A stretch of DNA of 64,000 nucleotides from Armatimonadota bacterium (GTDB lineage Bacteria > Armatimonadota > Zipacnadia > JAUWAU01), in assembly GCA_030601885.1 (NCBI GenBank), contig JAUWAU010000022.1, positions 6,175-70,174 on the forward strand, given 5' to 3'. Position numbers and translations under genes: made by a program. Of this stretch, positions 23,012 to 46,328 are shown in pieces (the stretch's first letter is position 1; the number at the start of each line of letters is the position of its first letter). Below the pieces are notes generated by a model. The model made no database searches and was not told the DNA's origin. It saw only the letters and a list, made by a program, of their open reading frames with translations.

Positions 23012-23058
23012 GGCGGCCACTCTCCGTGTGTGATGCTGTGAGTGCTTGACAGGTTGGC

Positions 23059-23087
23059 AGTGTAGCAGAAGGTGAGGTGGGGAGCAA
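23059..23087 (-). promoter_or_regulatory. Candidate sigma70-type promoter for the NTPase-TPR gene
   Basis: The minus strand reads TTGCTC, a 17-nt spacer, then TACACT, about 45 nt upstream of the proposed GTG start. Confidence 0.3.
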
Positions 23088-23123
23088 GACGGCAGTGGTT
23101 GGTGGATAGTGATTAGTGATAGT

Positions 23124-23146
23124 GAATTCCGGGGACATATAATGCC
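23124..23146. repeat. REP-like repeat copy A (left arm flanking the RAYT remnant)
   Basis: GAATTCCGGGGACATATAATGCC is the inverted partner of 23466-23490. The core is CCGGGGACATA(TA)ATGCC. Confidence 0.7.
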
Positions 23147-23189
23147 AATTTCTTGACATTCCACCCGGTGCCCTGCGACTCTGGCCCTT

Positions 23190-23466
23190 GTGGCACGGAT
23201 AGCGAGAGTTGTGCTTCCTGGAGTCGCCCACCACGTTACCCAGCGCGGCGTGCGGTCCCAGTTGCGTGCGATGCCGAGGAGCTTGTGGGGATACGGGACT
23301 GGCGGGAGTTGTTGCGAGCGATCCGGCGGAGGTGGCCAAGCTGCGGGAGAAGAGCCGGAGGGGTCGCCCGTGCGGGAACGAGGAGTTCGTGCGTTGGGCC
23401 GAGGGCGTGACGGGCCGTCGTCTGCAGCTGCTCTCCCCGGGCCGCCCCCGCAAAGGGGAGAAATAG
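23190..23466 (+). pseudogene. Remnant of a REP-associated tyrosine transposase (RAYT / IS200-like Y1 transposase), internally deleted and frameshifted
   Basis: Frame 0 starts MARIARVVLPGVAHHVTQRG, a typical RAYT N-terminus. Frame +1 ends ...RRGRPCGNEEFVRWAEGVTGRRLQLLSPGRPRKGEK, a typical RAYT C-terminal tail. Only about 92 codons remain in total, and the HUH/Tyr catalytic core is missing. Confidence 0.65.
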
Positions 23467-23490
23467 GCATTATGTCCCCGGATTTCCGTG
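23466..23490. repeat. REP-like repeat copy B (right arm flanking the RAYT remnant); overlaps the last codons and stop of the TIR gene
   Basis: GGCATTATGTCCCCGGATTTCCGTG; its reverse complement CACGGAAATCCGGGGACATAATGCC matches copy A. Confidence 0.7.
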
Positions 23491-24762
23491 TTTCTTCATG
23501 AAATCGGGCCCGGGGAGCTCAGCAAAGTCGGTCACGACCTCCTGCACTCGTTCCGGAGATGCCTCACCATGGCGAGCCACAAGCTTACGCAGGCTCTTAC
23601 TGATAATGTGGGTCGCCACGTAGTCCGGATCGCCGAAGATGCTTTCCAGACCGGCTGATGCTATGGCGCAGCCCAATGTCCCTATGGCCCGATCTGCGAT
23701 GGGGGCAGCACGATAGGCCTGCGAATCCGCGGTCTTCACCAGGAGTCTAACATATTGCGGCCAGAGGCTGCGGGGCATCGCCGCGGCTGCCGCCACAAGT
23801 CCGCCCGTGAGCTTGTTCATCGCGTCGAACTGGCAACTGTCGATGAGAGATATCACATCCACGAACAGCATGTGGAGAACGTGCTCCTCCGATGTGGCCA
23901 GCAATTCGGATTCGAGACATGAGAGGGCGTCGGCCTTTACGTCTAGGGAGCCGCTCAACACTACGCGCCGAGTCGCTTGTGTCATCAGGACGCCAACTCG
24001 GTCACGCCGGAGGAGTTGTGCATCCCCTGCTACCTGAGAGATGAACGAAAGCGCCAGTCGTCGCGTGCTTGAGTCGTCGTCGCAAACGTGGGGCGATACC
24101 AAGTCTATCACGGCCGCCCGGTCGCTCTCCGATAGTAGCGACAGCCTAGCGTTGATGCCATCGCCGTGGGCTTCCCAGCGGAGGATCGTTCGGGCTGTCT
24201 CCCTCGCCAGGCAGCTGGGCTGGGGCAACGACACATCTGGCGGATGCCTCAGCTTGGCAGTGCCCTGGGCTGCGGGGCCGGGCGCTCGTGCGTCCTGGCT
24301 TTGGAGGGGGATGGGTTGGGACGCGCCGTCGCGGGGACGGCGAGCCTCGGCCACGATGGCGTTCAGGAGGCCCTGGTAGGCTTCGCTGTAGGGGTTGGTA
24401 GCGAAGTCGGCGTACTTGCGAGCCTTGAGGTAGCCGGGGAGGTTGCAGTCCTCGATGACGCAGGCCAGGATGAACCGCTTCTTCTTCTCGCGGATTTGCC
24501 TCTCGATGGCCTCCCGGAGCTCCTCCTGAATCCACGGGCGCTTGACCGAGGCCTTGGAGAGGACGGCGATGACGAAGTGCGCCTCGCCGATGGCGGTCTG
24601 GATCTCGTCGGGAATGGAGTCGCCGATGTGCAGTTTGGCTTCGTCGGTCCATACCTGACAGCCATCGCGCTCGAGATCGGCCCCGAGCTTCTCGACGAAT
24701 TCGTGGTCGGCGCTTGTGTGGCTGATAAACACCTTGGGCCTTGTTGGTTGGTCAGGATGCAT
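23470..24762 (-). CDS. TIR-domain protein with an uncharacterised, about 270-aa alpha-helical C-terminal region
   Basis: MHPDQPTRPKVFISHTSADHEFVEKLGADLERDGCQVWTDE...HFVIAVLSKASVKRPWIQEELREAI is a TIR fold with the W-x-x-E-E-L putative catalytic Glu retained. ATG at 24760-24762. GC looks lower than in the neighbours. Confidence 0.8.
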   Translation of the reverse strand: MHPDQPTRPKVFISHTSADHEFVEKLGADLERDGCQVWTDEAKLHIGDSIPDEIQTAIGEAHFVIAVLSKASVKRPWIQEELREAIERQIREKKKRFILACVIEDCNLPGYLKARKYADFATNPYSEAYQGLLNAIVAEARRPRDGASQPIPLQSQDARAPGPAAQGTAKLRHPPDVSLPQPSCLARETARTILRWEAHGDGINARLSLLSESDRAAVIDLVSPHVCDDDSSTRRLALSFISQVAGDAQLLRRDRVGVLMTQATRRVVLSGSLDVKADALSCLESELLATSEEHVLHMLFVDVISLIDSCQFDAMNKLTGGLVAAAAAMPRSLWPQYVRLLVKTADSQAYRAAPIADRAIGTLGCAIASAGLESIFGDPDYVATHIISKSLRKLVARHGEASPERVQEVVTDFAELPGPDFMKKHGNPGT

Positions 24763-24825
24763 GGCACCGGGCCTCAGAAAGCGTTCTGTATAGCAATGCG
24801 ATTGTATGTAGGAGATTCGACGGAG

Positions 24826-24849
24826 CACGCGGGTGGGCCTGCCCGCGTG
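24826..24849. promoter_or_regulatory. Perfect 8-bp inverted repeat (CACGCGGG-N8-CCCGCGTG) upstream of the TIR gene
   Basis: Read directly at 24826-24849, which is 64-87 nt upstream of the TIR start. It could be an operator, or a terminator insulating the gene from the repeats. Confidence 0.3.
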
Positions 24850-24884
24850 ATGGCAGTGGGCACTGGCTAGTGATCAGTGAGATG

Positions 24885-29984: not shown

Positions 29985-30932
29985 GTGGCCGAGCGGATCT
30001 GCATTTGCATCGCCAACTACAACCAGGGCGAATGGCTGCAGCGGGCGATCGACTCGATCCTCCGCAGCACCATCGCCGACGCCGTCGAGATCGTGGTAGT
30101 GGACAGTGGCTCCACGCGGGACGGCGTCGCGGCTGCTCGCGAGCGATTTCCGCAGCCCCGATACATCGAAATGGGCCGCAATTGCGGGTATTCGACGGCA
30201 TTGAACCGGGGGCTCGCGGAGACAGATGCGCCGATCGTCGTGTGTGCCAATGCGGATATCGAGTTCTCCCCAGGCACCTTGGAGCTACTGCGCGACGTAC
30301 TGTTGAGCCACGGGAATGCGGCCGGCGCGGCGCCGCGATTTGTGTTCGGCGACGGCGCGGCGCAGCCGAGCGTTGAGGCCTTCCCATCCCTCTGGCAGGT
30401 CCTGCGCATGGCGCTGGTGCCAGGGACGCGAACGCGGCCGGCTCCCGAGATGGGCGGCCCAGTTCCGGTGGAGACATCGGTTGGGGCGTGCGTCATGTAC
30501 CGGCGTGAGTGTCTCGAGGAGGTCGCCGGATTCGACGAGCGTTTCTTCCTATACTACGAGGAGGTGGACTTGCATCGCCGCCTCCGAGGCGCCGGATACG
30601 GGCTCGTGGTGGCGCCGGAAGCCGTCGTGGTGCACCATGGGGGTCGCGCTACCGGGGGGGCAACGGCCACGACCGTGCGGCAGCATCTGGCAAGCCTCTT
30701 CTACTACCTGCGCAAGCATGACGGCCGCGGGCAGGAGCTGCTCGGCCGGACGATTCTCGCCATCGGCTACCTGGCCCGCCTGGCGGTCAGCATTGCGCTG
30801 CTGCCGGTGATGTTGGTGGTGGCGCTCGCGCGTCGCGCGAATCCTCTGGGCGCGCTGGCGAAGTACGCATCGCTGCTGTCCTGCTGCGTGCGTGGGTGGA
30901 CGGAGACAGAGCGGGGCGTAGAGCCCAGGTGA
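29985..30932 (+). CDS. GT2-family glycosyltransferase
   Basis: VAERICICIANYNQGEWLQRAIDSIL...VVDSGSTRDG...NCGYSTALNRG...ANADIEF are GT-A motifs. GTG at 29985 lies 9 nt after GGGAGGAAG. ATG at 29844 is an alternative start. Confidence 0.8.
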   Translation: MAERICICIANYNQGEWLQRAIDSILRSTIADAVEIVVVDSGSTRDGVAAARERFPQPRYIEMGRNCGYSTALNRGLAETDAPIVVCANADIEFSPGTLELLRDVLLSHGNAAGAAPRFVFGDGAAQPSVEAFPSLWQVLRMALVPGTRTRPAPEMGGPVPVETSVGACVMYRRECLEEVAGFDERFFLYYEEVDLHRRLRGAGYGLVVAPEAVVVHHGGRATGGATATTVRQHLASLFYYLRKHDGRGQELLGRTILAIGYLARLAVSIALLPVMLVVALARRANPLGALAKYASLLSCCVRGWTETERGVEPR

Positions 30933-31100
30933 CGAGCGCCTGCCGGTTCCGGCGGGAGGCAGGTGCGATGTCGCGGAAGATCGGCTGGCTGCGACCAAGA
31001 AAAAGCGGAGCAGCAGATTGGTGCCTGCTGCTCCGTGAACAGTACCGCGCCTGCTATGCGGGCGAGAGCGTACTGTGCCCACTATGAGCCGGATGATGGC

Positions 31101-31397
31101 CTATGTGCCGCTCTCTTTCAGCATGTCGTCCGCAAGTTGCTCGGCGTCCACCTCATACACGCCGTCCTGTACAGCCTGCCGGAGTGCATTCACTTTCTCC
31201 TGCCGCACCGGGGCAAGCTTCGCCAACGCATCGCGGGCAAGCTGGACCTCCTGCGCACGCGCTGAGAGGCTGACTCGATCAGCCTCTGGCGGCGCCTCGG
31301 CAGGCTCGGCCCCCTCGACCTTGTCTGCAGGTGTCGGCTCCGTCGGGCCGACAGGCTCCGGCTCGATCGGCCGAACTCCCTCTGGATCAATCTTCAC
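31101..31397 (-). CDS. flgM: Anti-sigma-28 factor FlgM family protein
   Basis: 98 aa. The C-terminus VRQEKVNALRQAVQDGVYEVDAEQLADDML matches the FlgM C-terminal sigma-28 binding helix pattern. GTG start follows AGGAGGG. Confidence 0.7.
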   Translation of the reverse strand: MKIDPEGVRPIEPEPVGPTEPTPADKVEGAEPAEAPPEADRVSLSARAQEVQLARDALAKLAPVRQEKVNALRQAVQDGVYEVDAEQLADDMLKESGT

Positions 31398-31906
31398 GCA
31401 ATCACACCCTCCTGCGCGCCGCAGCCCCCTCGCTCCCGAGCGTCGTAAGGATTATCCGCAGAGGAGTCATACATCGTGTCGCGGCGATGTCAATTTGCCG
31501 TTACGGTTTGCCTCCGAACGGCTCGACCAACTCACTTTAGACAGCAGACCATAGCGCTCGCGCCTGCTTGGCCCGGCTCTTCGAATGCCTGCCGCAACAA
31601 GCGGGTGCATTAGCGCCGCGCGCAACCGGCATTCGGCTCTCAGTTTCGCCCAGTGGGGAGCTGAGCAACGCCGACATTTTCTATGTTCGCCGCAGCCGTA
31701 TCCGGCTCCTTCCTCCGTGTGACATGCAGGCACGCGGAGGTAGGTGGCGCGCGGGGCGGTACAGCGACCTCGCGGATTCGCAGACCGCGGCTCCGGAGCC
31801 GCATCGGCTACGCTCTGAGCCACGACGGGTGGTTCATGTCTGGCGGTGGCGGAGCCAAGTGGCTTGAAGTTGAGACGGGGTCGAATCCTGTCCCACAGCG
31901 TGTCGC

Positions 31907-36033: not shown

Positions 36034-36687
36034 TTAGCTCCCTTGGCGACCGTGCTCCGCCGGTTCGAGGTGGCAGGTATCGCTGAACGTGAGCAGCACG
36101 ACGCCATCGGCGTGCGTCTGCAGGGCCGTCACCGATGCGTTGGCAATGCGCAATCGCCGGCTGTTCGGCCAGGGAATGTCCAGGGCGGTTGCCAGGATCT
36201 GGCGGATCGGCCCGCTATGCGTCACGACGACTATGCGCCCGCTATCGCATCCTCCCACCATGCCCCCGAAGGCGTCCCACACGCGCCGGCGCAGCTCCTT
36301 CGAACTCTCGGCGCCCGGCGGACGGAAATGCTCCAAATCCCGCTCCCATGTCTCCAAGGCCACCGGGTCGTCCTGATCGGCCTCGTCGAGCGTCAGCCCC
36401 TCCCAGCGCCCGAAGCAGCGCTCTCGAAGGCCGCGATGCACCACCGGATTCAGCCCGTGCGGGCGGGCTATTGCCTCGGCCGTTCGGAAGGCGCGCCCCA
36501 GGTCGCTGGAGTATACTTCATCCACGCACGTCCCGGCCAGTCGGTCCGCCAGGAGCGCTGCCTGGCGCTCTCCCCTGGTGGTCAGGGCGCTGTCGCCTTG
36601 CCCCTGGATTCGCCGCCGTCTGTTCCACTCGGTCTCGCCATGCCGCACGAGCAGCACGGTTGTGGGCGTCGCTGCGCTCATGGCCAT
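36034..36687 (-). CDS. Histidine phosphatase family protein (PGAM/CobC-like)
   Basis: VLLVRHGETEWN is the RHG catalytic motif. ...VVVTHSGPIR carries the second His. The second ATG (36681) overlaps the upstream stop as ATGA. Confidence 0.8.
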   Translation of the reverse strand: MAMSAATPTTVLLVRHGETEWNRRRRIQGQGDSALTTRGERQAALLADRLAGTCVDEVYSSDLGRAFRTAEAIARPHGLNPVVHRGLRERCFGRWEGLTLDEADQDDPVALETWERDLEHFRPPGAESSKELRRRVWDAFGGMVGGCDSGRIVVVTHSGPIRQILATALDIPWPNSRRLRIANASVTALQTHADGVVLLTFSDTCHLEPAEHGRQGS

Positions 36688-37763
36688 CGAACCTCCACGG
36701 GGCCAAGTTCGCTGAAGTCCGGCTGCAGCCGCAACGTGCCCATGGTCACCGTGGCCACGGCATCTGCCGCCGCCACCGGCGTTATCACACGGAGGCTGTT
36801 GGCCTTGAAGTCCACGTCCGTCAGGACGCCTATGCCGAGTAAGTGCTCCTGGGCGTCAGAAAGGCCCACTACGCCGCCGCGAATTGCCCTGAGCGGCAAC
36901 ACGGCGACCTCCTGATCGGGGAACTGCTCGCGCAAGGCTTCAATGGCCCCCGGCTGCGGGTACTGCTCGCACACCAGCAGGAGGCGCTCTTCTGTCATCT
37001 CCGCGTGGAAGCACTCAATGCCGAGCAGCTCCTCGGCGTAGGAGCGCACGTGACTCGGCGCTGCAGTGCCGGACAGCAGGCTGGTGCCGAGCACCCCGAT
37101 CTGCCCCAGGGGCAAGGCCAGCTCGGCCGCGCCGGCGAAGTAGTTGCGGAATTGCTCTCCGCGGTGGCGCCGTCGCTGGTCCATATCGCGGCGTCGCGCG
37201 CGGCGGGACGCGCGCACGGTGTGGACCTGAACGTCGGTTCGGCTCGCGTGCGGAGCAATGAGATGCTGGATCTCGTCTCTCGCCTGGATGGCGATGATAT
37301 GGCCCGGCGCCAACAGAGCTATCTTCGCCTCTTTGAGCGCCCGGGCGGCGGGCCCATTGATCCATCCGGACGTATCAACGATAATACAGTCGGCGCCGGC
37401 CCGGCGTGCCGCATCGGCCATCTTCCGCACGCCGACAGCGGTCTGCAGCATGTGGCCCTGCGGGCTGGTGGCCCCAACGAACCACATGCCGGCGGGCTCA
37501 GTGCCGTGGTCAGGAGGCGTGGTGCTGTCCACCAGGGCAAACCCGATAGTCGTTGGCGGTCCGAGCCACGACTGTCCCAGGTCGGCGTCCAGGATGGCAG
37601 GCTTGCGTCCCGCCTCCGCGCAGCAGTGCGCCAGGAACCGGCACAGCGTGGACTTGCCCGTGTCAACGGCGCCGAGCACCACGGCGACGCCGCCGTCGCG
37701 GGCTACGGCGTCGGCTGCGCCCTGCCAGTCCGGCGGGCGGTCGATGTCGGTGATCGACAGCAT
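36678..37763 (-). CDS. Clp1/Grc3-like P-loop polynucleotide kinase family protein
   Basis: VAVVLGAVDTGKSTLCRFL is Walker A. ILDADLGQSWLGPPTTIG and IIVDTSGWINGP resemble the Clp1 P-loop domain pattern (D-x-D-x-GQ, DT-x-GW). Confidence 0.6.
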   Translation of the reverse strand: MLSITDIDRPPDWQGAADAVARDGGVAVVLGAVDTGKSTLCRFLAHCCAEAGRKPAILDADLGQSWLGPPTTIGFALVDSTTPPDHGTEPAGMWFVGATSPQGHMLQTAVGVRKMADAARRAGADCIIVDTSGWINGPAARALKEAKIALLAPGHIIAIQARDEIQHLIAPHASRTDVQVHTVRASRRARRRDMDQRRRHRGEQFRNYFAGAAELALPLGQIGVLGTSLLSGTAAPSHVRSYAEELLGIECFHAEMTEERLLLVCEQYPQPGAIEALREQFPDQEVAVLPLRAIRGGVVGLSDAQEHLLGIGVLTDVDFKANSLRVITPVAAADAVATVTMGTLRLQPDFSELGPVEVRWP

Positions 37764-37855
37764 GCTGAGTCTGGGAGCCTACGAAGATGGGCTCCCCCCA
37801 GCAAGTTCGTGCCTGCCGCTAGCTTTCCTTCAGCCTGGTGTGTAGGGGTGAGCGC

Positions 37856-38314
37856 ATGACGCGACGGAGCAAACTGCTGCTGGGGCTCGGTATCCTGGCT
37901 CTCGTGGGGGTGGGGTTGTGGCTGGCGCTTCGCGAGCGGCAGTCGCCCCGGGAACAGATCCTGGAGAGCATCATCGCTCTCGTGGACGCGGTCGAGGCCG
38001 AGGACGTCGCCGGGTGCATGCGGTTGATATCTCCGGACTACCGCGACAGCAAGGGCAACACGCGCATCATCCTTCGCCGGTTGGCGACCAACGGCTTTCG
38101 CGAGGCCCAGTCAATAGACATGACCCTGCATGAGCCCCAGATCACCGTCTCCGGACGGGACGCCACGGCGACTCTCGAGGCGGCGGTGACGGCAGTGACG
38201 AGCACCGGGCGGCATCGCTGGGAGCTGGAGCTCACCTTCACCTTCAAGCGCGAGCGGCGGCGCTGGCGGATCGTGCGCGCCGAGGGCTGGCAGCATCTCT
38301 CGGGCCAATGGTAA
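37856..38314 (+). CDS. Membrane-anchored NTF2/SnoaL-like (DUF4440-like) hypothetical protein
   Basis: MTRRSKLLLGLGILALVGVGLWLAL is a TM anchor, followed by an alpha+beta cone-like segment of about 120 aa ending RRRWRIVRAEGW. Confidence 0.5.
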   Translation: MTRRSKLLLGLGILALVGVGLWLALRERQSPREQILESIIALVDAVEAEDVAGCMRLISPDYRDSKGNTRIILRRLATNGFREAQSIDMTLHEPQITVSGRDATATLEAAVTAVTSTGRHRWELELTFTFKRERRRWRIVRAEGWQHLSGQW

Positions 38315-38426
38315 TTGGGCGCGGCGTTAGTAGCAGCCGGGCTCATCGGGCGGGAGCGTCGCCGCGCGCGCCCACCAAGGTCGCGCTGGAACATTTCTGG
38401 TCCTGGCGCGTTCTGCGATAGGGGAA

Positions 38427-39350
38427 GTGTCGTCTGACACTCCCTTCACACCGATGACAAGGAGGAGGGAAAACATCCTGAGTACGAGAAGAGAAAAGCT
38501 GCTTGACCAATTACACACAGATTCGGAGGTGACTGAGGTGCGAGCGAAGGGGGTGAGTCTGCGCAATGGCGCCATCCTGTGGTTCGGCACTGCGGTGATT
38601 GGAGTGCTGGTCTTGCTGCTGGTACCTACGGTCGGCCAGGATGCGCTTTCGGGTGCAGCGGTCGTGCAAGAGCAAGGGCGGGTAACGGATGGATTGGTCG
38701 TGCTCTACGAGTTCAAAGAGGGAGCCGGCCAGGTCGTCAGTGAGACCAGCGGGGTGGGCCAGCCGTTGAATTTGACGATTAGCGACGCCACGGGGGTGAC
38801 CTGGGCGCCGGGCGGCGGCGTGGATATCACGGGCGACCGAGTAGCGATCCGGACGGATGGCGCGGCGACCAAGATCATCGACGCACTGCGAGCCAGCAAT
38901 GAGCTGACCATCGAAGCAGTTGTGACGCCTCGGGACACGACGCACACCGGACCGGCGCGGATCGTGTCGCTGTCGCGCGACACTTCGGTGCGGAACTTCA
39001 CGCTCGGCCAGACCCGGAGCCAGTACATCATGCGTCTGAGGACTTCCCGCACGGATACGCAGGGGACGCCCGAGACAGAGACGGACCGCGACGTCCTGAA
39101 GGCAGAGCGGCAGCATGTCGTGGTCACCTACACAGCGGGCTCGGTACGCATCTATGTGGACGGGGAGCCGAAGGGCCTGGGAGCACGAACCGGCGATTTC
39201 TCCACGTGGGATCCCACGTTTCGTTTCCTACTCGGCAACGAAGGCACCCTCGACAGACAGTGGCACGGGAAGATCGAGTTGGTGGCGATCTATAGCCGCG
39301 GCCTCAGTGCCGAGGAGATAAAGCGGAACTTCGACGCTCTCGCCAACTGA
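38427..39350 (+). CDS. LamG/concanavalin-A-like lectin domain protein with N-terminal TM anchor
   Basis: LVVLYEFKEGAGQVV...LTIEAVVTP...ARIVSLS...VVVTYTAGSVRIYVDGE...WHGKIELVAIYSRGLSAEEI is the classic LamG jelly-roll pattern. The start is uncertain: 38427, 38454 or GTG 38538. Confidence 0.65.
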   Translation: MSSDTPFTPMTRRRENILSTRREKLLDQLHTDSEVTEVRAKGVSLRNGAILWFGTAVIGVLVLLLVPTVGQDALSGAAVVQEQGRVTDGLVVLYEFKEGAGQVVSETSGVGQPLNLTISDATGVTWAPGGGVDITGDRVAIRTDGAATKIIDALRASNELTIEAVVTPRDTTHTGPARIVSLSRDTSVRNFTLGQTRSQYIMRLRTSRTDTQGTPETETDRDVLKAERQHVVVTYTAGSVRIYVDGEPKGLGARTGDFSTWDPTFRFLLGNEGTLDRQWHGKIELVAIYSRGLSAEEIKRNFDALAN

Positions 39351-39474
39351 GAGCTGAGGCTAACGCCGGCGAGCGCCGCGGCCGAAGGAGCTTGCCGACG
39401 CGTACTGATGACACGGAACGCTCTCCGCGTCCGCGGCCGCCGAGGTTGCCGCCTCGGCGAAGGGGCGATGATGT

Positions 39475-39945
39475 GTGCGTGACAGCAGCGCCTTGGTGCG
39501 GGTACTGGAGAAGCTGCGCATCAGGAAGCGCGGCCCCGAACTCACGCGCGAGCAGGCTATGAACGCCCTTCCGCTCCGCAACCCGAACCTGAAGTGGCGG
39601 GGTAACGACCGGGGCGACGTGGTGGTCACCCTCACGCGACGCCGGGACGTCAGGGGCCGGCTGGTCTCCTTCTTCTTTCACGTTCCCAAATCGCGTGACA
39701 TAACACTCGACGAGGTGGGCTCGAAGGTCTGGACGCTGAGCAACGGTCGGCGCACAGTGACGGAGCTCATCGACACGCTGGCGACGGAGTACAAGCTCAA
39801 CCGGCGCGAGGCCGAGGTGTCGCTCACCGAGTACCTCCGGCAGCTCGGCCAGCGAGGGATGGTGGGGTTGTTGGTGGATAAGGAGGACATGGAGGAGACA
39901 GACGCTCAGAAGGGGACCGCAGAGGCGGAGGAGTCGGAGGAGTAG
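39475..39945 (+). CDS. PqqD-family (RiPP-recognition-element-like) small protein with acidic tail
   Basis: ITLDEVGSKVWTLSNGRRTVTELIDTLATEYKLNRREAEVSLTEYLRQLGQRGMV matches the PqqD winged-helix pattern. Confidence 0.55.
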   Translation: MRDSSALVRVLEKLRIRKRGPELTREQAMNALPLRNPNLKWRGNDRGDVVVTLTRRRDVRGRLVSFFFHVPKSRDITLDEVGSKVWTLSNGRRTVTELIDTLATEYKLNRREAEVSLTEYLRQLGQRGMVGLLVDKEDMEETDAQKGTAEAEESEE

Positions 39946-40080: not shown

Positions 40081-40109
40081 TTGAAAAACACGAGCTGCTC
40101 TGGTACACT
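40081..40109 (+). promoter_or_regulatory. Candidate sigma70-type promoter of the TerB/ATPase/helicase cassette
   Basis: TTGAAA (40081-40086), a 17-nt spacer, then TACACT (40104-40109). Confidence 0.35.
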
Positions 40110-40252: not shown

Positions 40253-42740
40253 GTGAAGGCACTGCTCGTACTGGCGCTATTGATCGGGGCCGTCTGGTAC
40301 GTGTGGTGGGTCTGGCGTCAGGCCCAGGAGGGGGCATTCGCGTCGAGGGCTAAAGCCCGCCGGCGGAGTGGTGCGGCGGGAGGGGAGGCTGAGCTGCGAG
40401 CGTACGTAGCGGCGATGCGAGCGGATGGGCGATCCGAGCACGAGATACGAATCGTCTTGCTACGGGCGGGATGGCCTGCATATCTGGTTGAGCCCTTGGT
40501 GGGCCCTGCGCCAACGGGAAGCCCCGCCGCAACACGGAGCCGGAGTGTTCCTGCGGGGGCCTCATTGCACGGGCAAACAACTGAGGCCCGGGTGGGAAGT
40601 GTCGGTCCTGACGAGTGCTGGGTCCCCCCCGGGGGACAGACCCTTGTGGCTGGGCGGACGATCGGGGGGGGGGATGATCTATGTGGGGCGAGGCCTCGCA
40701 TCGGTTGGGAGCTCTGCGTTGCCTGAACCCGCGCTGATCGATCCAGCCCTCCCGGTAGGGGACAGCTCTCTGGGGAGACCGGCCACGTGGCCATACTGGC
40801 CGTCCTACGGGAGCATCTCGCCAGACTGCCGTGCCACCTATCTGGACTGGCTCGCGGATGGACGAAGGGATCCCGCCGTTTCGATCGGCTGCGTGTTCCT
40901 GTTCTACTACGGCCTGGAACGCAGGCTCTTGGCGGATCCGTCTACATCGCACCGCGCGAGGGCGCAGCGCTCGGCTCTTGTACAAGAAGTCGAGCGCTTG
41001 CTCGGCATCTACAAATGGCACAGCGCCCTCGTCGGGTACGCTACGGACTTGCTCGACCTCCTGGGCGTGGAGGGGGCGAGGGCGGGGGTGGGGGATCTCA
41101 CGGCGCCGAATCTGTGGACCGGCGAGGCCCGGGCGGTACAGGAGTACCTTCAGACATCATACTTCTCCAAGGACACCGCGCGGGTGAAAGTGGGCCTGGC
41201 CACGATCGTGGCGGCAGGCCGTCCTGTGCCCTGGGACTGGGCACTGGCGTGGTACTGCAGCAGCCCCGAACGGAGCTTCCGGACTCCCGCGTGGCGGTGC
41301 GGGGATGAGTTTCGGGCACTCTTCCGCGCTCGATTTGATGAGCGGTTCGGAGACGGACTTGCGGTGAAGCCGAACAAGACGCGGCTCAAGGCTAAGTACC
41401 GACCTGCGAGTTCATCCTTCTGGCGCGAGGTCTCTGCGTGCGCAGAGGACCTCTGCGACGTCACTCGTCAGAGAGTGCCACTGCGCAAGGTGGCAGCTCT
41501 TGTCGAGGACTGCCAGACGGAGCTGGATGGCTACTCACGCTGGTTGGGTCGCAACCCGGGTGGACGTGGAACGCTCCCGGGCATCGCACTTCTGCCGGAG
41601 GAAGTCGTTCGCACGATTACGTTTGACGAGCTTGAGGCACTGCGGTCCTGCCTCGACGACATGCTCGGCAAGTCGAGATCAGTCGTCGTTGGGGCCCAGA
41701 GCCTGATGGAGCGTTGGCCGTCAGGTGACAAGGAGCGCTTTGCGAAGCGAGATGCCGTCGGACTGGCCCAAGCCGTGAGCAAGTGCGGCTATGGGATCGA
41801 GCCGGACGCGCGCTTCGGCGGGACGACCCCCAAGGCCGAGGATCCGCTGGTGGTGTTCCGACTCCCTGAGGGTTCGCCGACTGTCCCGACCGAGTCGTAC
41901 CTCGCTGCCGTGTTCGCGGTACGCCTATTCATCGCGGTGGCCCTCGCCGACGGGAGGGTCAGCGACGGTGAGCACCAGGAGATCGTGGGGTACCTGAAGG
42001 CGAGTACGCCCCTGACGCCCGCCGAACGCGTGCGCCTCCGCGCCCACTCCCGCTGGCTCGTGTGTGTGAAGCCGGGGCTGACTGGAATGAGGCGGAGGAT
42101 GGCCGGGCTCACGGCCGAGGAGCGTGCGGCATTGGGCGGCATGCTAGTTGCGGTAGCAGGCGCAGACGGAGTCATAGCGCCCCCAGAGGTGGCCGCACTG
42201 ACGAGAATCTACCGGTTGCTGGATCTTCGGCCGGAGGAGGTCCATCAGGATATCCACGCACTGGCGGCTTCGGCCGCGTCGCCGAATGACCCCGTAACTG
42301 TCGCAGAGGCCGACCTAGGCTCGTCGGGATTCACGATACCTTCCGCGCCCGGGCACCGGGAAGATGAGCCCGACACCATCACGCTCGACATGGATCGAGT
42401 GCGGGCGAAGCTAGCCGAGACCGAGAGGGTCGCGGTGTTGCTTGGGAGCATCTTTGCTGAGGATGAACAGCCGGGAGGGATTCCCCCGGCTGCGGGGGAG
42501 GAGGGTCCTCTCGCGGCCGGTCTTGACTCAGCCCATTCGGCTCTACTGCGAAGGTTGGCGAAACGCGAATCTGTGGATAGAGCGGCCTTTGAGCGCCTGT
42601 GTGAAGACTGCTCTGTCCTGCCCGACGGGGCCCTTGACGCTCTCAACGATGCAGCCTTGGATGCCTGCGAGGAGAGCCTGTGCGAGGGTGATGACCCCAT
42701 CGAAATCAACCAGGAGGTTCTTGAGGAGATGGTGGCGTGA
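40253..42740 (+). pseudogene. TerB-N / TerB / TerB-C domain protein (Shango SngA-like), reading frame broken in a G10 tract
   Basis: The upstream frame (GTG 40253 or ATG 40127) encodes the TM helix KALLVLALLIGAVWYVWWVW and ...CWVPPGGQTLVAGRTIGGG. The downstream frame continues MIYVGRGL...EPALIDPALPV...WPYWPSYGSISPDCRATYLDWL...FLFYYGLERR (TerB-N). This is followed by a TerB-like segment (IAVALADGRVSDGEHQEI) and TerB-C (ALLRRLAKRESVDRAAFERLCEDCSVLPDGALDALND). Removing one G from the tract joins the two frames. Confidence 0.75.
40664..40673. repeat. Homopolymeric G10 tract at the frameshift site (a C7-G5 tract lies 34 nt upstream at 40624-40635)
   Basis: Counted directly: atc-GGGGGGGGGG-atgatc. 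Confidence 0.95.
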
Positions 42741-44101
42741 GCGAACTCCCGCGGATTCGGCCGAAGGATCGGGATGCCATCTTGCAGTCGCTACGGGCCG
42801 GTGTCGTGCCGCGCGCTGGGCAGCAGCACATTCAGGTGGGGCGGGTGGAGGAGGTAAAGGCCCTCCTTGCGGACCTGGAGCGGATCGTCGACGGTGGATC
42901 GGCAATGCGCTTCGTCATCGGCGAGTATGGATCCGGCAAGACCTTCTTCCTCTACCTTGTTCGGTCCATCGCGCTCAGCAAGCGCCTGGTGACGGTTCAC
43001 GCGGACCTGACCCCGGATCGGCGCCTTCAGGGCAGCGGAGGCCAACCGCGTGCGCTGTACGCTGAGTTGATGCGCAACATGGCGACCCGCTCGAAGCCGG
43101 ACGGAGGTGCACTGTCGAGCGTCGTCGAGCGATTCGTTAGCTCCGCGCTAAGCGAGGCCCGGGCGGCGGGCAGCGCCCCCGAGGTCGTGATACAGCGGAG
43201 GCTGACGGATATCTCTGAAATGGTGGGGGGATACGACTTCGCGCAAGTCGCTGCGGCCTACTGGCGGGGTCACGACACTGGCAACGACATTCTCAAGTCC
43301 GACGCGATCCGTTGGCTGCGCGGGGAGTTCTCGACTAAGACGGACGCGCGGCGGGCGCTCGGGGTCCGCACAATAATAGATGACGCGAATGTCTACGACC
43401 ACCTCAAGCTCTTGGCCCGTTTCGTGCGCCTCGCTGGGTTCGAGGGCCTTTTCGTCTGCCTGGATGAACTGGTTAACCTCTACAAGCTCGCCAACACTCA
43501 GGCTCGGAACGCCAACTACGAACAGATCCTCCGGGTCCTCAACGACAGCCTGCAGGGAGTCGCGGTAGGGCTAGGTTTCTTACTCGGAGGTACCCCGGAG
43601 TTCCTGACCGATACGCGCAAGGGACTGTATAGCTACCCGGCCCTCCAGTCACGCCTTGCGGACAACACCTTTGCCGTAGGCGGACTGGTGGACTACTCTG
43701 GGCCGGTGCTCCGGCTGGCCAACCTCACGAGGGAGGAGTTCTTCGTCCTCCTCGACAAGCTGCGGCACCTCCAGGCTGGTGGTGATCCCCAGGGGTACCT
43801 CGTGCCCGACGAGGCCCTGACGGCATTCATGGATCACTGCGCCAGACGCGTGGGCGACGCGTACTTCCGCACGCCGCGGGAGACCATCCGAGAGTTCGTC
43901 GGGTTGCTGGCCGTACTCGAACAGAATCCCCAGGCGTCGTGGCAAGAGCTTGTCGGCGGGGTCGAAATCGGGCATGAGGTCAATCCTGACCTCGTTCCTC
44001 TCCCCGATGAAGGCGAGTCGGGCGAGGGCGCACAATCCGCCGTGAGCGTGCCCGCGAGAAGCGACATCGCCAATGATGAGCTTACCACGTTCAGGCTCTG
44101 A
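42737..44101 (+). CDS. P-loop ATPase, DUF2791-like (Shango SngB-like)
   Basis: ILQSLRAGVVPRAGQQHIQVGR...MRFVIGEYGSGKTFFLYL contains Walker A. LFVCLDELVNL is Walker B. The GTG start overlaps the upstream stop (GTGA). Confidence 0.75.
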   Translation: MSELPRIRPKDRDAILQSLRAGVVPRAGQQHIQVGRVEEVKALLADLERIVDGGSAMRFVIGEYGSGKTFFLYLVRSIALSKRLVTVHADLTPDRRLQGSGGQPRALYAELMRNMATRSKPDGGALSSVVERFVSSALSEARAAGSAPEVVIQRRLTDISEMVGGYDFAQVAAAYWRGHDTGNDILKSDAIRWLRGEFSTKTDARRALGVRTIIDDANVYDHLKLLARFVRLAGFEGLFVCLDELVNLYKLANTQARNANYEQILRVLNDSLQGVAVGLGFLLGGTPEFLTDTRKGLYSYPALQSRLADNTFAVGGLVDYSGPVLRLANLTREEFFVLLDKLRHLQAGGDPQGYLVPDEALTAFMDHCARRVGDAYFRTPRETIREFVGLLAVLEQNPQASWQELVGGVEIGHEVNPDLVPLPDEGESGEGAQSAVSVPARSDIANDELTTFRL

Positions 44102-46328
44102 CGCGGAACAGCGGGAAAGCTCGGCGTTTGCCCATCTTCACGAGAAGGTCCAGCGCTGGGTCTGGAGCCGCCGGTGGCGCGAACTGCACGACGTGCAGGA
44201 ACTGGCCGTTGAGCCGATCTTGGCGAAGGCCGATGTCATCGTCGCGGCTCCCACGGCGGGCGGCAAGACAGAAGCGGCATTCCTTCCCATCTGCTCCAGC
44301 CTCATGGGCGATGCGCCGGACGGCGTCGTGGTGCTGGCGGTGAGCCCCCTCAAGGCCCTGATCAACGATCAGTACGATCGCCTCGAACCCTTCTGCGCGA
44401 CCCTCGGCATCAGCGTGCATCGGTGGCACGGCGACGTCTCTGCCGGGACGAAGCAGCGGCTCTTGCGGGAGCCCTCAGGTGTTCTTCTGATCACCCCCGA
44501 GTCCCTTGAGGCCCTGTTCGTGCTCCACGGTACCAAGCTGGCGCGCGTGTTCGCCGGTCTGAGTTACGTGGTCGTGGACGAGTTGCATGCATTCATCGGC
44601 AGCGAACGCGGCCGACAACTGCAGTCGCTGCTCCATCGGGCCGAACTGCTGCTCCGGCGGCACGTGCCAAGGATCGGGCTCAGCGCCACTCTCGGCGACA
44701 TGCGGCTCGCGGCCGACCACTTACGCCCGGGGGCAGCGGAGAAGGTCAAGCTCGTTGTCTCAGCCGGGACGGGCCAGCAGATCAAACTGCTCCTGCGTGG
44801 GTATCGGGATACGCCCCCGGGGCCGGGCGAGGCTGACGCGGCTAGCGGCGACACCCAGGGCCCTCAGAGTGATCCCCCCAGCGCTGATGTGCGAGCTATC
44901 GCCGAGAACTTGTTCGCCAATCTCCGGGGCCGTCACCATCTCATCTTTGCCAACAGCCGGAGCAGCGTCGAGCAGTATGCCGATCTCCTGAGGCAGCTCA
45001 GCGACCAGCGGCGCCTACCGAACGAGTTCTTCCCACACCACGGCAGCTTATCGAAGGAGCTTCGTGAGGACGTCGAGGCGCGGCTGAAGGACAAGACCCG
45101 CCCGACGAGCGTCGTCTGCACGAGCACGCTGGAGCTGGGCATTGACGTGGGTGACGTTGAGAGCATCGTGCAGATTGGGACTCCACCGTCGGTGGCGAGC
45201 ATGAGGCAGCGACTTGGGCGCTCCGGGCGCCGCGAAGGCCAAGCGGCAGTCCTGCGGCTCTTCATTCGAGAGCCGGAACTCACGGAGCGGAGCCCGCCGC
45301 AAGACTACTTGCGGGCCGAACTCGTGCAGGCGACCGCGATGGTGCGCCTACTCGTTGCTGGGTGGTGCGAGCCGCCCACGGAGGGCGCACTTCACTTGTC
45401 CACTTTGGTCCAGCAGCTACTCGGGCTGATCGCTCAGTACGGGGGCGTGCGCCCCCAAGAAGCCTGGGGGGCCCTCTGCGGAAGCGGCCCGTTCGGCGGC
45501 GTCAACCAACGGCTGTTCGCCAAGTTCCTGCGCGCCCTGAGCGAACACGACTTGGTCGAACAAGCAGCCGACGGCGCTCTGCTGCTTGGTGTGCGTGGCG
45601 AGCGAATCGTCAACCACTATAGCTTCTACACTGCATTCATGTCGCCGGAGGAGTACCGCATTATCACCGGCACGCGCACACTCGGCACGATCCCGATTGA
45701 CTATCCTCTGGTGGAGGGCATGTACATCATCTTCGCCGGACGCCGGTGGGAAGTGGTCAGCGTCGATCCGGGGGGCAGGGCCGTCGAGGTCGTGCCCGCG
45801 GCCGGCGGGCGGCCTCCGTCCTTCGGCGGCACCGGTGCCTCAGTGCACGATCGCGTCCGCCGGGAGATGCTGTGCATCTACCAGTCTACGGAGATACCCG
45901 CCTTCCTGGATGCCACGGCCCGGGAGCTCCTCGCGGAGGGCCGAGCCGCGTTCGCCCGGTACGGCCTGGGTCAGCAACGTTGGCTCCAGCACGGGGACGA
46001 CTGCCTGCTCTTTCTCTGGGCTGGGGACCGCGTCATGAACACGGTGCTCCTGCAGTTGGTGGCCCGGGGCCTGAAGGTCACGCAAGACGGCATCGCGCTC
46101 ACCATCGAGGACGCGACGACGGCTGAGCTGTCCATTCATTTGAAAGCACTGGCCGACCAAGGCCCCGCTGGCGGTGAGACGCTTGCCTCGGTGGTCCAGA
46201 ACAAGCGCTCGGAGAAGTACCATTGGTGCCTAACCGAGGAGCTACTGAGTCGAGACTACGCGTCGCGCTGGTTGGACGTCGCTGCAGCGCACCAGGTAAT
46301 CGAACGGTTGGCGACATCACCGCTGTGA
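44073..46328 (+). CDS. DEAD/DEAH-box superfamily-2 helicase, Lhr-like (Shango SngC-like)
   Basis: VQELAVEPILAKADVIVAAPTAGGKTEAAFLP is motif I. VVVDELHAF is motif II (DExH). GLSATLG is motif III. TSTLELGIDVG and QRLGRSGRR are motifs V and VI. The start overlaps the upstream gene by 29 nt. Confidence 0.8.
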   Translation: MMSLPRSGSDAEQRESSAFAHLHEKVQRWVWSRRWRELHDVQELAVEPILAKADVIVAAPTAGGKTEAAFLPICSSLMGDAPDGVVVLAVSPLKALINDQYDRLEPFCATLGISVHRWHGDVSAGTKQRLLREPSGVLLITPESLEALFVLHGTKLARVFAGLSYVVVDELHAFIGSERGRQLQSLLHRAELLLRRHVPRIGLSATLGDMRLAADHLRPGAAEKVKLVVSAGTGQQIKLLLRGYRDTPPGPGEADAASGDTQGPQSDPPSADVRAIAENLFANLRGRHHLIFANSRSSVEQYADLLRQLSDQRRLPNEFFPHHGSLSKELREDVEARLKDKTRPTSVVCTSTLELGIDVGDVESIVQIGTPPSVASMRQRLGRSGRREGQAAVLRLFIREPELTERSPPQDYLRAELVQATAMVRLLVAGWCEPPTEGALHLSTLVQQLLGLIAQYGGVRPQEAWGALCGSGPFGGVNQRLFAKFLRALSEHDLVEQAADGALLLGVRGERIVNHYSFYTAFMSPEEYRIITGTRTLGTIPIDYPLVEGMYIIFAGRRWEVVSVDPGGRAVEVVPAAGGRPPSFGGTGASVHDRVRREMLCIYQSTEIPAFLDATARELLAEGRAAFARYGLGQQRWLQHGDDCLLFLWAGDRVMNTVLLQLVARGLKVTQDGIALTIEDATTAELSIHLKALADQGPAGGETLASVVQNKRSEKYHWCLTEELLSRDYASRWLDVAAAHQVIERLATSPL

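What the first reader, a model, noticed from the sequence alone, without database searches (positions are those of the whole stretch)
40621..40680. G10 homopolymer frameshift inside the TerB-N gene: possible phase-variable ON/OFF switch of a defence system
**What is seen.**
- The conserved TerB-N N-terminal motif is split between two frames exactly at a run of ten G (40664-40673).
- The upstream frame reads ...CWVPPGGQTLVAGRTIGGG and then runs into nonsense (DDLCGARP...).
- The downstream frame reads MIYVGRGLASV...EPALIDPALPV.
- Deleting one G (G9), or adding two, gives a continuous ...TIGGGMIYVG... protein.
- A second C7-G5 tract lies 34 nt upstream.

**Interpretation.**
- Homopolymers this long are rare in coding DNA and are classic contingency-locus switches.
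- Alternatively, the ATG immediately after the tract (40674) could yield an N-terminally truncated, non-membrane form.
- A homopolymer sequencing or assembly error is the trivial explanation.
Basis: seen in the sequence. Interest (0 to 1): 0.72.

Follow-up and report, generated by a model that had tools for sequence, protein, structure and literature searches.

The report
Poly-G frameshift splits Shango defence gene
A run of ten G's, one more than the reading frame allows, cuts the first gene of a three-gene anti-phage system (Shango) in two; it is most likely a recent and possibly reversible knock-out of a known kind, but without the raw reads neither a sequencing miscount nor true on/off switching can be settled.

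Summary
G10 at 40664-40673 is the only homopolymer of 8 or more bases in the 64 kb window. It lies exactly where the conserved TerB_N motif W-x-P-x-G...V-x-G-x-x-I-x-G-G | M-[ILV]-Y-V-G changes frame. Removing one G gives an 828-aa protein (GTG 40253 to stop 42740) with complete TerB_N, TerB and TerB_C domains and an N-terminal membrane helix.

The gene is sngA of a Shango system; sngB (42737-44101) and sngC (44073-46328) are intact.

- In about 190 homologues the motif is contiguous. None is frameshifted here, and none carries more than G7 at this site.
- Two assemblies, an NCBI contig and a Logan assembly of SRR14872663, both show G10.
- No G8, G9, G11 or G12 allele exists in the public collections searched.
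- About 45 other genes in the window look intact.

Most likely this is a real +1 G slippage mutation in an unusual GGG-GGG-GGG tract. It would give a young OFF allele that slippage could revert. The precedent is the G8 tract of pglX in Streptomyces coelicolor.

No evidence shows that the tract was selected as a switch or that the population is mixed. A homopolymer miscount remains possible (about 0.2). Interest is modest.

The parts
40081..40109 (+). Promoter-like site (TTGAAA, 17 nt spacer, TACACT, TG before the -10) upstream of sngA
   Evidence: This is a consensus scan only, with 2 sites found in 7.5 kb against 0.5 expected. It lies 144 nt upstream of GTG 40253. Function is not shown.
40253..40726 (+). 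5' piece of sngA in its original frame. It starts at GTG and encodes the membrane helix KALLVLALLIGAVWYVWWVW, a small helical segment, a disordered linker and the first 17 profile positions of TerB_N (CWVPPGGQTLVAGRTIGGG). These are followed by 17 out-of-frame residues and TGA at 40724-40726.
   Evidence: Translation. The piece aligns contiguously with the N-terminus of the closest intact homologue P0002, which itself starts at the membrane helix (46% identity over 235 aa, E 5e-53). Gene callers extend the ORF to ATG 40127, giving 199 aa.
40624..40635 (+). C7 followed by G5, encoding the Pro-Pro-Gly-Gly of the conserved W-V-P-P-G motif; in frame and intact
40664..40673 (+). G10 homopolymer, the site of the frame break. 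In the in-frame (G9) state it is GGG-GGG-GGG, coding Gly138-Gly140, the turn between two beta strands of TerB_N.
40674..42740 (+). 3' piece of sngA in the shifted frame: MIYVG..., the rest of TerB_N (profile 18-207), TerB and TerB_C. There are no further stops or shifts.
   Evidence: The gene callers' version starts at TTG 40719 (673 aa, P0001).
42737..44101 (+). sngB, a BrxD-like ATPase. It is intact, and its GTG start overlaps the sngA stop (GTGA).
   Evidence: Pfam BrxC_BrxD 1-411 of 414, E 1.3e-152. PADLOC SngB, E 1.2e-176. The overlap was read directly.
44073..46328 (+). sngC, a DEAD/DEAH helicase. It is intact and overlaps sngB by 29 nt.
   Evidence: Pfam DEAD and Helicase_C. PADLOC SngC, E 1.7e-269.

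Best explanation
This is a genuine one-base expansion (G9 to G10) by replication slippage in a poly-G tract inside sngA, the first gene of a Shango (SngABC) anti-phage operon.

**Shown**
- The intact gene is the fusion of the two frames. It encodes an 828-aa, membrane-anchored TerB_N-TerB-TerB_C protein.
- The tract encodes the Gly-Gly-Gly turn inside the first beta sheet of TerB_N.
- With G10, translation from GTG 40253 ends after 157 residues.
- The rest of the operon is undamaged.

**Inferred**
- The sequenced population carries a null or severely weakened sngA, so Shango is OFF. Loss of translation through 2 kb of sngA may also lower sngB and sngC expression, because their starts overlap the preceding stops.
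- The mutation is young, since there is no second lesion in 2.5 kb.
- A 9-10 base G run is intrinsically slippage-prone, so G10 to G9 reversion should occur far more often than ordinary mutation. The tract therefore acts as a de facto stochastic ON/OFF toggle.

Whether selection maintains the tract for that purpose is not shown.
For: **The split is at the tract and the repaired gene is the evolved one**
- Translations and in-silico tract lengths.
- Pfam TerB_N covers 1-207 of 207 in the repaired protein against 18-207 in the downstream piece.
- PADLOC SngA, E 2.5e-84.
- The alignment to P0002 runs unbroken across the junction and includes the lineage-specific membrane helix.
- The motif is contiguous in the listed homologues wherever it was located and in about 66 genomic loci.
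- W123 and G140 are invariant in a 40-sequence alignment.
- In the AlphaFold model, strands 130-132 and 135-137 lie before the tract and strand 142-144 after it, with pLDDT 95-97.

**The allele is probably real**
- An independent Logan assembly of SRR14872663 is 100% identical over 13,365 bases with no gaps, G10 included.
- The same two products are recorded from NCBI and from Logan.
- About 45 other genes in the window give full-length domain matches, although the window holds 124 G/C runs of 5-7 bases. This argues against an indel-prone read technology.

**The tract is unusual**
-.

**Precedent**
- G-tract slippage switches a defence system on and off in a high-GC bacterium: pglX, G8 ON, G7 or G9 OFF, at 1e-2 to 1e-4 (PMC4365076).
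- Indels in homopolymeric tracts are a recognised source of functional diversity in Mycobacterium tuberculosis (PMC13104627).
Against: - No reads were available, so coverage and the distribution of tract lengths are unknown.
- Both assemblies may rest on the same reads, so a systematic miscount at a 10-mer would be shared.
- The organism appears in only one sample, so no sister strain with G9 supports the reconstruction.
- That loss of the N-terminal part abolishes defence is inferred from conservation and a model. It was not measured, and the mechanism of Shango is unknown (10.1101/2022.05.11.491447, PMC10250203).
- The reversion rate is inferred from other organisms. The mismatch-repair status of this one is unknown.
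Confidence: 0.5

Rival explanations
1. Sequencing or assembly miscount. The organism really has G9 and an intact sngA, and the tenth G comes from homopolymer error in the reads or in consensus calling.
For: - Homopolymers of this length are the classic site of indel error (general knowledge).
- The repaired gene is flawless over 828 codons and the operon is otherwise intact, as expected if nothing is wrong.
- It is the only run of 8 or more bases in the window, so there is no internal control of the same length.
- The two assemblies may share their reads.
Against: - Two assemblers give the same length, and their sequences agree at 100% over 13.4 kb, which points to accurate reads.
- Logan contigs are built from k-mers seen repeatedly (my own knowledge of the method), so G10 k-mers were the dominant path.
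- No other gene of about 45 is split, despite 124 G/C runs of 5-7 bases.
Confidence: 0.2
2. An evolved contingency locus. The GGG-GGG-GGG tract is kept by selection because it lets the lineage switch Shango on and off at high frequency. The population would be a mixture of G9 and G10 cells, and possibly G11, with G10 dominant when sampled.
For: - The tract lies in the 5' 17% of the gene, one length in three is ON, and it sits in a defence gene. This is the same layout as pglX (PMC4365076).
- GGG-GGG pairs are otherwise avoided: 0 of 91 against about 5 expected.
- Runs of 10 or more are about 50-fold rarer than one per window by extrapolation.
- The gene shows no decay.
Against: - No length variant was found in any collection.
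- The Logan contig runs straight through the tract.
- No related SngA has a long tract here; the maximum is G7 in about 66 loci and G6 in the nearest relative. There is therefore no sign of conservation.
- A G9 can arise by chance where the protein needs Gly-Gly-Gly, and several such tracts per genome are expected.
- This is a single observation.
Confidence: 0.2
3. The split arrangement is expressed. Either slippage by RNA polymerase or a +1 ribosomal shift on the G run makes full-length SngA from G10, or initiation at ATG 40674 (or TTG 40719) makes a working cytosolic SngA that lacks the membrane anchor.
For: - A +1 shift on any GGG-G restores exactly the canonical protein.
- The G run just upstream of ATG 40674 resembles a Shine-Dalgarno sequence.
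- Gene callers choose the equivalent Met as the start in several homologues, which shows the context looks like a start site.
- Some homologues naturally lack the membrane helix (for example P0045 and P0061).
Against: - No homologue has the frameshifted arrangement, so it is not a conserved recoding site.
- All six checked 'Met-start' homologues continue in frame upstream.
- Every homologue in which the motif was located keeps the W-x-P-x-G hairpin, apart from a few annotated as starting inside or just after it (six of these were checked and are start miscalls). A product from ATG 40674 would lack it, including the invariant W123.
- There is no stop or known hungry codon in the A site and no unusual RNA structure nearby (z = -0.57).
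- Transcriptional slippage is documented mainly for A/T runs (own knowledge).
Confidence: 0.1

Closest known systems
Phase variation of the Pgl (BREX-type) phage defence of Streptomyces coelicolor through a G tract in pglX (Sumby & Smith 2003, as described in PMC4365076)
   Same: - A poly-G tract lies inside a coding gene of a multi-gene anti-phage system in a GC-rich genome.
- One tract length is in frame, and +1 or -1 lengths give a frameshift and loss of defence.
- The proposed mechanism is replication slippage.
   Different: - In Pgl the switching was measured (1e-2 to 1e-4) and both alleles were sequenced. Here a single length is known.
- The tract there is G8 in the ON state; here G9 would be ON.
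- The gene there is a methyltransferase that is toxic without PglZ, which explains selection for OFF variants. For SngA no cost is known.
- It is a different defence system (BREX/Pgl versus Shango).
Shango defence system, SngABC (Millman et al. 2022, 10.1101/2022.05.11.491447; Johnson et al. 2023, PMC10250203)
   Same: - Same three-gene architecture and order: a TerB-domain protein, a BrxD-like ATPase and a DEAD/DEAH helicase, with strong PADLOC matches to all three.
- SngB is 82% identical to that of an Armatimonadetes MAG.
   Different: - sngA is interrupted here.
- This SngA carries an N-terminal membrane helix and a small helical segment that only some homologues have.
- No phase variation or frameshifted sngA appeared in the literature searches for Shango; the passages read do not mention either.
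Reversible frameshifts in homopolymeric G/C tracts of Mycobacterium tuberculosis (reviewed in PMC13104627; the glpK 7C tract is from my own knowledge)
   Same: Short G/C homopolymers in coding regions of a GC-rich bacterium gain or lose one base and reversibly inactivate a gene.
   Different: - Those cases are backed by clinical isolates and by experiments that show both alleles and reversion.
- They concern metabolism and drug tolerance, not phage defence.
Phase-variable restriction-modification genes with simple sequence repeats in Haemophilus, Neisseria, Helicobacter and Campylobacter (own knowledge; touched on in PMC12707154)
   Same: Defence genes are switched by repeat-length change in the coding region.
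   Different: - Those loci are conserved as repeat tracts across many strains, and tract-length polymorphism is documented.
- They occur in small AT-rich genomes that carry many contingency loci.

Membership tests
Shango (SngABC) anti-phage system | SngA: a protein with TerB_N, TerB and TerB_C domains | tested here: met
   After removal of one G: Pfam TerB_N 1-207/207 (E 3e-41), TerB and TerB_C, and PADLOC SngA E 2.5e-84. As it stands in the sequence the gene is split, so the system is present but probably not functional.
Shango (SngABC) anti-phage system | SngB: a BrxD-like ATPase | tested here: met
   Pfam BrxC_BrxD E 1.3e-152. PADLOC SngB E 1.2e-176, against BrxD at 1.6e-42.
Shango (SngABC) anti-phage system | SngC: a DEAD/DEAH helicase | tested here: met
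   Pfam DEAD and Helicase_C. PADLOC SngC E 1.7e-269.
Shango (SngABC) anti-phage system | Three adjacent genes on one strand in the order A-B-C | tested here: met
   Coordinates 40253-42740, 42737-44101 and 44073-46328, all on the + strand, with overlapping stops and starts. The same order is seen in homologous loci.
Shango (SngABC) anti-phage system | Protects against phage | not testable with these tools
   This needs plaque assays with G9 and G10 constructs.
Phase-variable (contingency) gene switched by a simple sequence repeat | A long homopolymer or short repeat inside, or just upstream of, the coding region, usually near the 5' end | tested here: met
   G10 occupies nucleotides 412-421 of the sngA reading frame, which is 2,487 nt with its stop codon once one G is removed.
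Phase-variable (contingency) gene switched by a simple sequence repeat | Changes in tract length move the gene between in-frame and out-of-frame states | tested here: met
   In silico, G9 and G12 give the full-length protein. G7, G8, G10, G11 and G13 give stubs of 182-200 aa.
Phase-variable (contingency) gene switched by a simple sequence repeat | Different tract lengths are observed within a population or among close strains | tested here: not met
   Only G10 is seen in the NCBI contig and the Logan assembly. G8, G9, G11 and G12 products are absent from the protein collection, and the JGI metagenome contigs do not hold this locus at all. The test is weak, because the organism is seen in one sample only and the reads could not be inspected.
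Phase-variable (contingency) gene switched by a simple sequence repeat | The tract is longer than composition predicts, or is maintained in related lineages | tested here: inconclusive
   It is longer than expected in this window (0.02 expected; GGG-GGG pairs avoided elsewhere). It is not maintained in relatives: the maximum is G7 in about 66 loci and G6 in the nearest relative.
Phase-variable (contingency) gene switched by a simple sequence repeat | A measured high switching rate | not testable with these tools
   This needs a fluctuation assay or a reporter assay.
Programmed recoding site (+1 ribosomal frameshift or transcriptional slippage) | The frameshifted gene arrangement is conserved among homologues | tested here: not met
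   The motif is in one frame in the listed homologues where it was located, in about 66 genomic loci, and in the six loci whose annotation suggested otherwise.
Programmed recoding site (+1 ribosomal frameshift or transcriptional slippage) | Stimulatory context, such as a stop or slow codon after the shift site, or a nearby RNA structure | tested here: not met
   The next zero-frame codon is GAT. A fold of 40610-40760 is no more stable than shuffled sequence (z = -0.57).

The most novel reading that the evidence does not exclude
The G tract is a selected contingency locus that gives an uncultured, probably Armatimonadota, lineage a heritable and reversible ON/OFF switch for Shango. This would be the first repeat-mediated phase variation reported for this defence system and for this phylum. 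A further possibility is that the G10 state is not simply OFF. It might yield a free membrane stub plus a cytosolic SngA started at ATG 40674, so that the tract toggles between two forms of the sensor.
Probability: 0.15. Interest if true: 0.55.

Novelty: new member of a known kind. Interest (0 to 1): 0.3.

Why it matters
That pair could be used to test what SngA's membrane anchor and first beta hairpin do, in a system whose mechanism is unknown. If tract lengths turn out to be mixed in the population, the known principle that defence systems are switched by repeat slippage (restriction-modification, Pgl/BREX) would extend to another system and to an uncultured phylum. It would also suggest that Shango carries a fitness cost.

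There is also a practical point for annotation. SngA genes are often given a wrong start at the conserved Met after Gly-Gly, and this locus is annotated as two unrelated ORFs.

If the tenth G is a miscount, the locus is simply an intact Shango system.

Tried and rejected
1. **Recurrent frameshift at this site in other SngA genes.** Eight of the 120 listed homologues are annotated as starting exactly at the Met after the tract. DNA could be fetched for six of them (L002, L003, L004, L085, L086, L087), and all continue in frame upstream with the W-x-P-x-G motif. These are start miscalls, not frameshifts. Two had no DNA available.
2. **Comparing the tract in close relatives.** There are none. The nearest SngA is 53% identical, and the source genome is not among the GTDB representatives.
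3. **Other tract lengths in public data.** Exact look-up of the predicted G8, G9, G11 and G12 products found nothing. A DNA pattern with a variable tract found nothing in the JGI metagenome contigs. A protein search with only the junction region returned just the window's own 199-aa product at high identity.
4. **The long ORF from ATG 40425 (771 aa) in the downstream frame as the real gene.** Rejected. Its first 83 codons have no homologue, whereas the other frame aligns to P0002. An open stretch of that length is expected by chance at 65% GC.
5. **GC3 frame analysis across the tract.** Uninformative, because the Ala/Pro/Gly/Arg-rich linker distorts codon-position GC.
6. **A stimulatory RNA structure for frameshifting.** None found.
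7. **A paper naming SRR14872663.** None found.
8. **A solved structure of SngA.** None. Only a distant TerB-like hit was returned.
9. **Synteny with the nearest Armatimonadetes MAG to confirm taxonomy.** Only the Shango genes themselves match. The taxonomic assignment therefore remains a lead.
Full report
**Observation**

The window has ten consecutive G at 40664-40673, followed directly by ATG at 40674. It is the only homopolymer of eight or more bases in 64 kb of 65% GC DNA; the next longest are one G7 and one C7.
- The frame entering the tract reads ...DECWVPPGGQTLVAGRTIGGG. It then runs into 17 unrelated residues and a TGA at 40724-40726.
- The frame leaving the tract reads MIYVGRGLASVGSSALPEPALIDPALPV... 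and stays open to 42740.
- In silico, G9 or G12 join the two frames. G8 and G11 stop immediately, and G7, G10 and G13 give the stub.

**What the gene is**

With one G removed and the start placed at GTG 40253, the ORF encodes 828 residues.
- Pfam finds TerB_N over its whole profile (1-207 of 207), then TerB and TerB_C.
- The product from ATG 40674 keeps only TerB_N positions 18-207, and the gene callers' 673-aa version keeps only 31-207.
- PADLOC assigns the three consecutive genes to SngA (E 2.5e-84), SngB (42737-44101, E 1.2e-176) and SngC (44073-46328, E 1.7e-269). This is the Shango anti-phage system.
- Shango was described as a three-gene system made of a TerB-domain protein, an ATPase and a helicase. 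It gives modest but broad phage protection, its mechanism is unknown, and membrane surveillance has been suggested for it (10.1101/2022.05.11.491447; PMC10250203).
- The stop of sngA overlaps the start of sngB (GTGA), and sngC overlaps sngB by 29 nt. The three genes therefore look translationally coupled.
- A promoter-like site lies at 40081-40109. This is a consensus match only.

**The intact gene is the fusion of the two frames**

- A search of 5.8 billion proteins gave 597 relatives. The best intact one is P0002 (821 aa, 53% identity, 100% coverage).
- P0002 begins at the same membrane helix. It aligns without a break from residue 4 across the junction into TerB_N (46% identity over 235 residues, E 5e-53). 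This places the true start at GTG 40253 rather than ATG 40127.
- In the 120 listed homologues the motif W-x-P-x-G ... V-x-G-x-x-I-x-G-G followed by M/L-[ILV]-Y-V-G is contiguous wherever it could be located.
- W123 and G140 before the tract, and Y143 and G145 after it, are invariant in a 40-sequence alignment.
- An AlphaFold model of the repaired protein (mean pLDDT 85.5) puts strands at 130-132 and 135-137 before the tract and at 142-144 after it. Confidence there is 95-97, so Gly138-Gly140 form a turn inside a small sheet. The model also shows a long N-terminal helix that includes the hydrophobic anchor.

**Is the split recurrent or conserved?**

No.
- Eight homologues are annotated as starting exactly at the Met after the tract, which looked like a possible recurrent event.
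- For the six whose DNA could be fetched, the upstream sequence continues in the same frame with the full motif. These are wrong start calls, probably because Gly-Gly codons followed by ATG resemble a ribosome-binding site plus a start.
- A scan of one genome per species returned 80 related loci. In the roughly 66 loci where the junction could be located automatically, both halves of the motif are in one frame.
- The longest G run at the site in those loci is 7 (L046). It is 6 in three others, including the nearest relative, an Armatimonadetes MAG.
- The long tract and the frameshift are thus peculiar to this lineage.

**Real allele or artefact?**

- The locus exists in two assemblies: an NCBI contig of 92.7 kb and a Logan assembly of run SRR14872663. 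The Logan contig is 100% identical to the window over 13,365 bases with no gaps, so it also has G10.
- Such agreement implies accurate reads. However, the two assemblies may rest on the same reads, so a systematic miscount at a 10-mer would be shared.
- As an internal check on indel quality, I annotated about 45 other genes of the window. They give full-length domain matches and none is split, although the window holds 108 G/C runs of five bases, 14 of six and 2 of seven.
- I could not inspect reads, and no paper mentions the run.
- I put the chance of an artefact at about 0.2.

**Is there evidence for switching?**

Not directly.
- Exact look-ups for the products expected from G8, G9, G11 and G12 found nothing.
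- A DNA pattern with a variable tract found nothing in the JGI metagenome contigs.
- A protein search with only the junction region found just the window's own 199-aa stub at high identity.
- The organism seems to have been sampled once, so this absence is weak evidence.

Indirect arguments for a special tract:
- G/C runs become 5.3-fold rarer per added base. Only 0.02 runs of ten or more, and 0.11 of nine or more, are expected in the window.
- GGG makes up 24% of Gly codons, yet none of 91 Gly-Gly codon pairs in 21 genes is GGG-GGG, where about five are expected. Three GGG codons in a row therefore run against local usage.

Against that, scaling to a whole genome predicts several such tracts by chance, and a protein site that needs Gly-Gly-Gly is a natural place for one.

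**Mechanism proposed**

Shown:
- The frame break lies at the tract.
- The upstream product ends after 157 residues counted from GTG 40253.
- The remainder of sngA, together with sngB and sngC, is intact.

Inferred:
- The tenth G arose by replication slippage.
- SngA is lost or crippled, because the downstream piece has no proper start and would lack the anchor, the invariant Trp and two of the three strands.
- Shango is off, possibly with reduced sngB and sngC expression through loss of coupling.
- The lesion is young.
- Slippage back to G9 is much more frequent than ordinary mutation, so the tract behaves as a stochastic switch whether or not it was selected for that role.

The direct precedent is the G tract of pglX in the Pgl/BREX defence of Streptomyces coelicolor. 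There G8 is ON and contraction or expansion is OFF, with switching at 1e-2 to 1e-4 (PMC4365076). Homopolymer indels are also a recognised source of functional diversity in Mycobacterium tuberculosis (PMC13104627).

**Rivals**

- Artefact, about 0.2, as discussed above.
- Evolved contingency locus with a mixed population, about 0.2. The anatomy and codon oddity fit, but there is no variant and no conservation.
- Expression despite the shift, about 0.1.
  - A +1 slip on GGG-G would recreate the canonical protein, and the G run could serve as a ribosome-binding site for ATG 40674.
  - However, the arrangement is not conserved, there is no stop or structure to stimulate shifting (fold z = -0.57), and no natural homologue lacks the hairpin.

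**Comparison with what is known, and novelty**

- The system is a member of Shango on every sequence criterion tested.
- The switch-like tract resembles known phase-variable defence genes in layout. It fails, or cannot yet pass, the criteria that define a contingency locus, namely observed length polymorphism and maintenance of the tract.
- The literature searches for Shango returned no paper on phase variation or a frameshifted sngA, and no structure of SngA is solved.
- At best this is a new member of a known kind. At worst it is an ordinary pseudogene-in-the-making or a miscount.
- Interest is modest at 0.3. The decisive experiment is cheap: count tract lengths in the reads of SRR14872663.

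Noticed in passing
L002:739, L003:1248, L004:1456, L085:351, L086:430, L087:690: Public gene calls for SngA homologues (P0031, P0063, P0078, P0047, P0095, P0101) start at the conserved Met after Gly-Gly. In every case the ORF continues upstream in frame with the W-x-P-x-G motif, and often with a membrane helix. This is a systematic start miscall, probably because Gly-Gly codons followed by ATG mimic a ribosome-binding site plus a start.
   Followed up: yes
window 20828-24873 (- strand): A TIR_2-domain protein (23473-24873; PADLOC TIR models down to 2.6e-20) lies next to a large AAA/NACHT-like ATPase with many TPR repeats (20828-23518). This may be a TIR plus STAND-type defence pair, about 16 kb from Shango.
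   Followed up: partly
window 16194-18171 (- strand): An AAA_15/AAA_21 ATPase (17005-18171) resembles PtuA and AriA. It is followed by an ORF (16194-17207) with a weak AriAB match (8.8e-06). This is a possible Septu- or PARIS-like two-gene system.
   Followed up: partly
window 36678-39945: Just upstream of Shango lie a CLP1-type P-loop protein (36678-37763, - strand), a SnoaL-like protein, a Laminin_G_3/concanavalin-like protein (38427-39350) and a PqqD-like protein (39475-39945). None matches a PADLOC model. Whether they have any link to the defence locus is unknown.
   Followed up: partly
L005 versus window 40253-46328: Against the nearest relative (Armatimonadetes MAG VGFB01000085.1), SngB is about 82% identical and SngC about 70-76%, but SngA only 53%. 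SngA evolves much faster than its partners, as might be expected of the component that meets the phage or the envelope.
   Followed up: partly
proteins P0125-P0138 (other genomes): There are many short proteins (129-346 aa) that carry only a TerB_N domain, some on very long contigs (for example P0128 on 917 kb). They could be N-terminal pieces of SngA genes broken elsewhere, or a separate short family.
   Followed up: no
window 30654-30660: The second-longest G run (G7) lies inside a minus-strand ORF (30549-31100) with no Pfam match, next to a FlgM-like anti-sigma factor gene (31104-31451). I did not check whether that ORF is intact.
   Followed up: no
window 44073-44078: sngC begins with two consecutive ATG codons. 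The NCBI record starts the protein at the second (750 aa) and the Logan call at the first (751 aa).
   Followed up: yes
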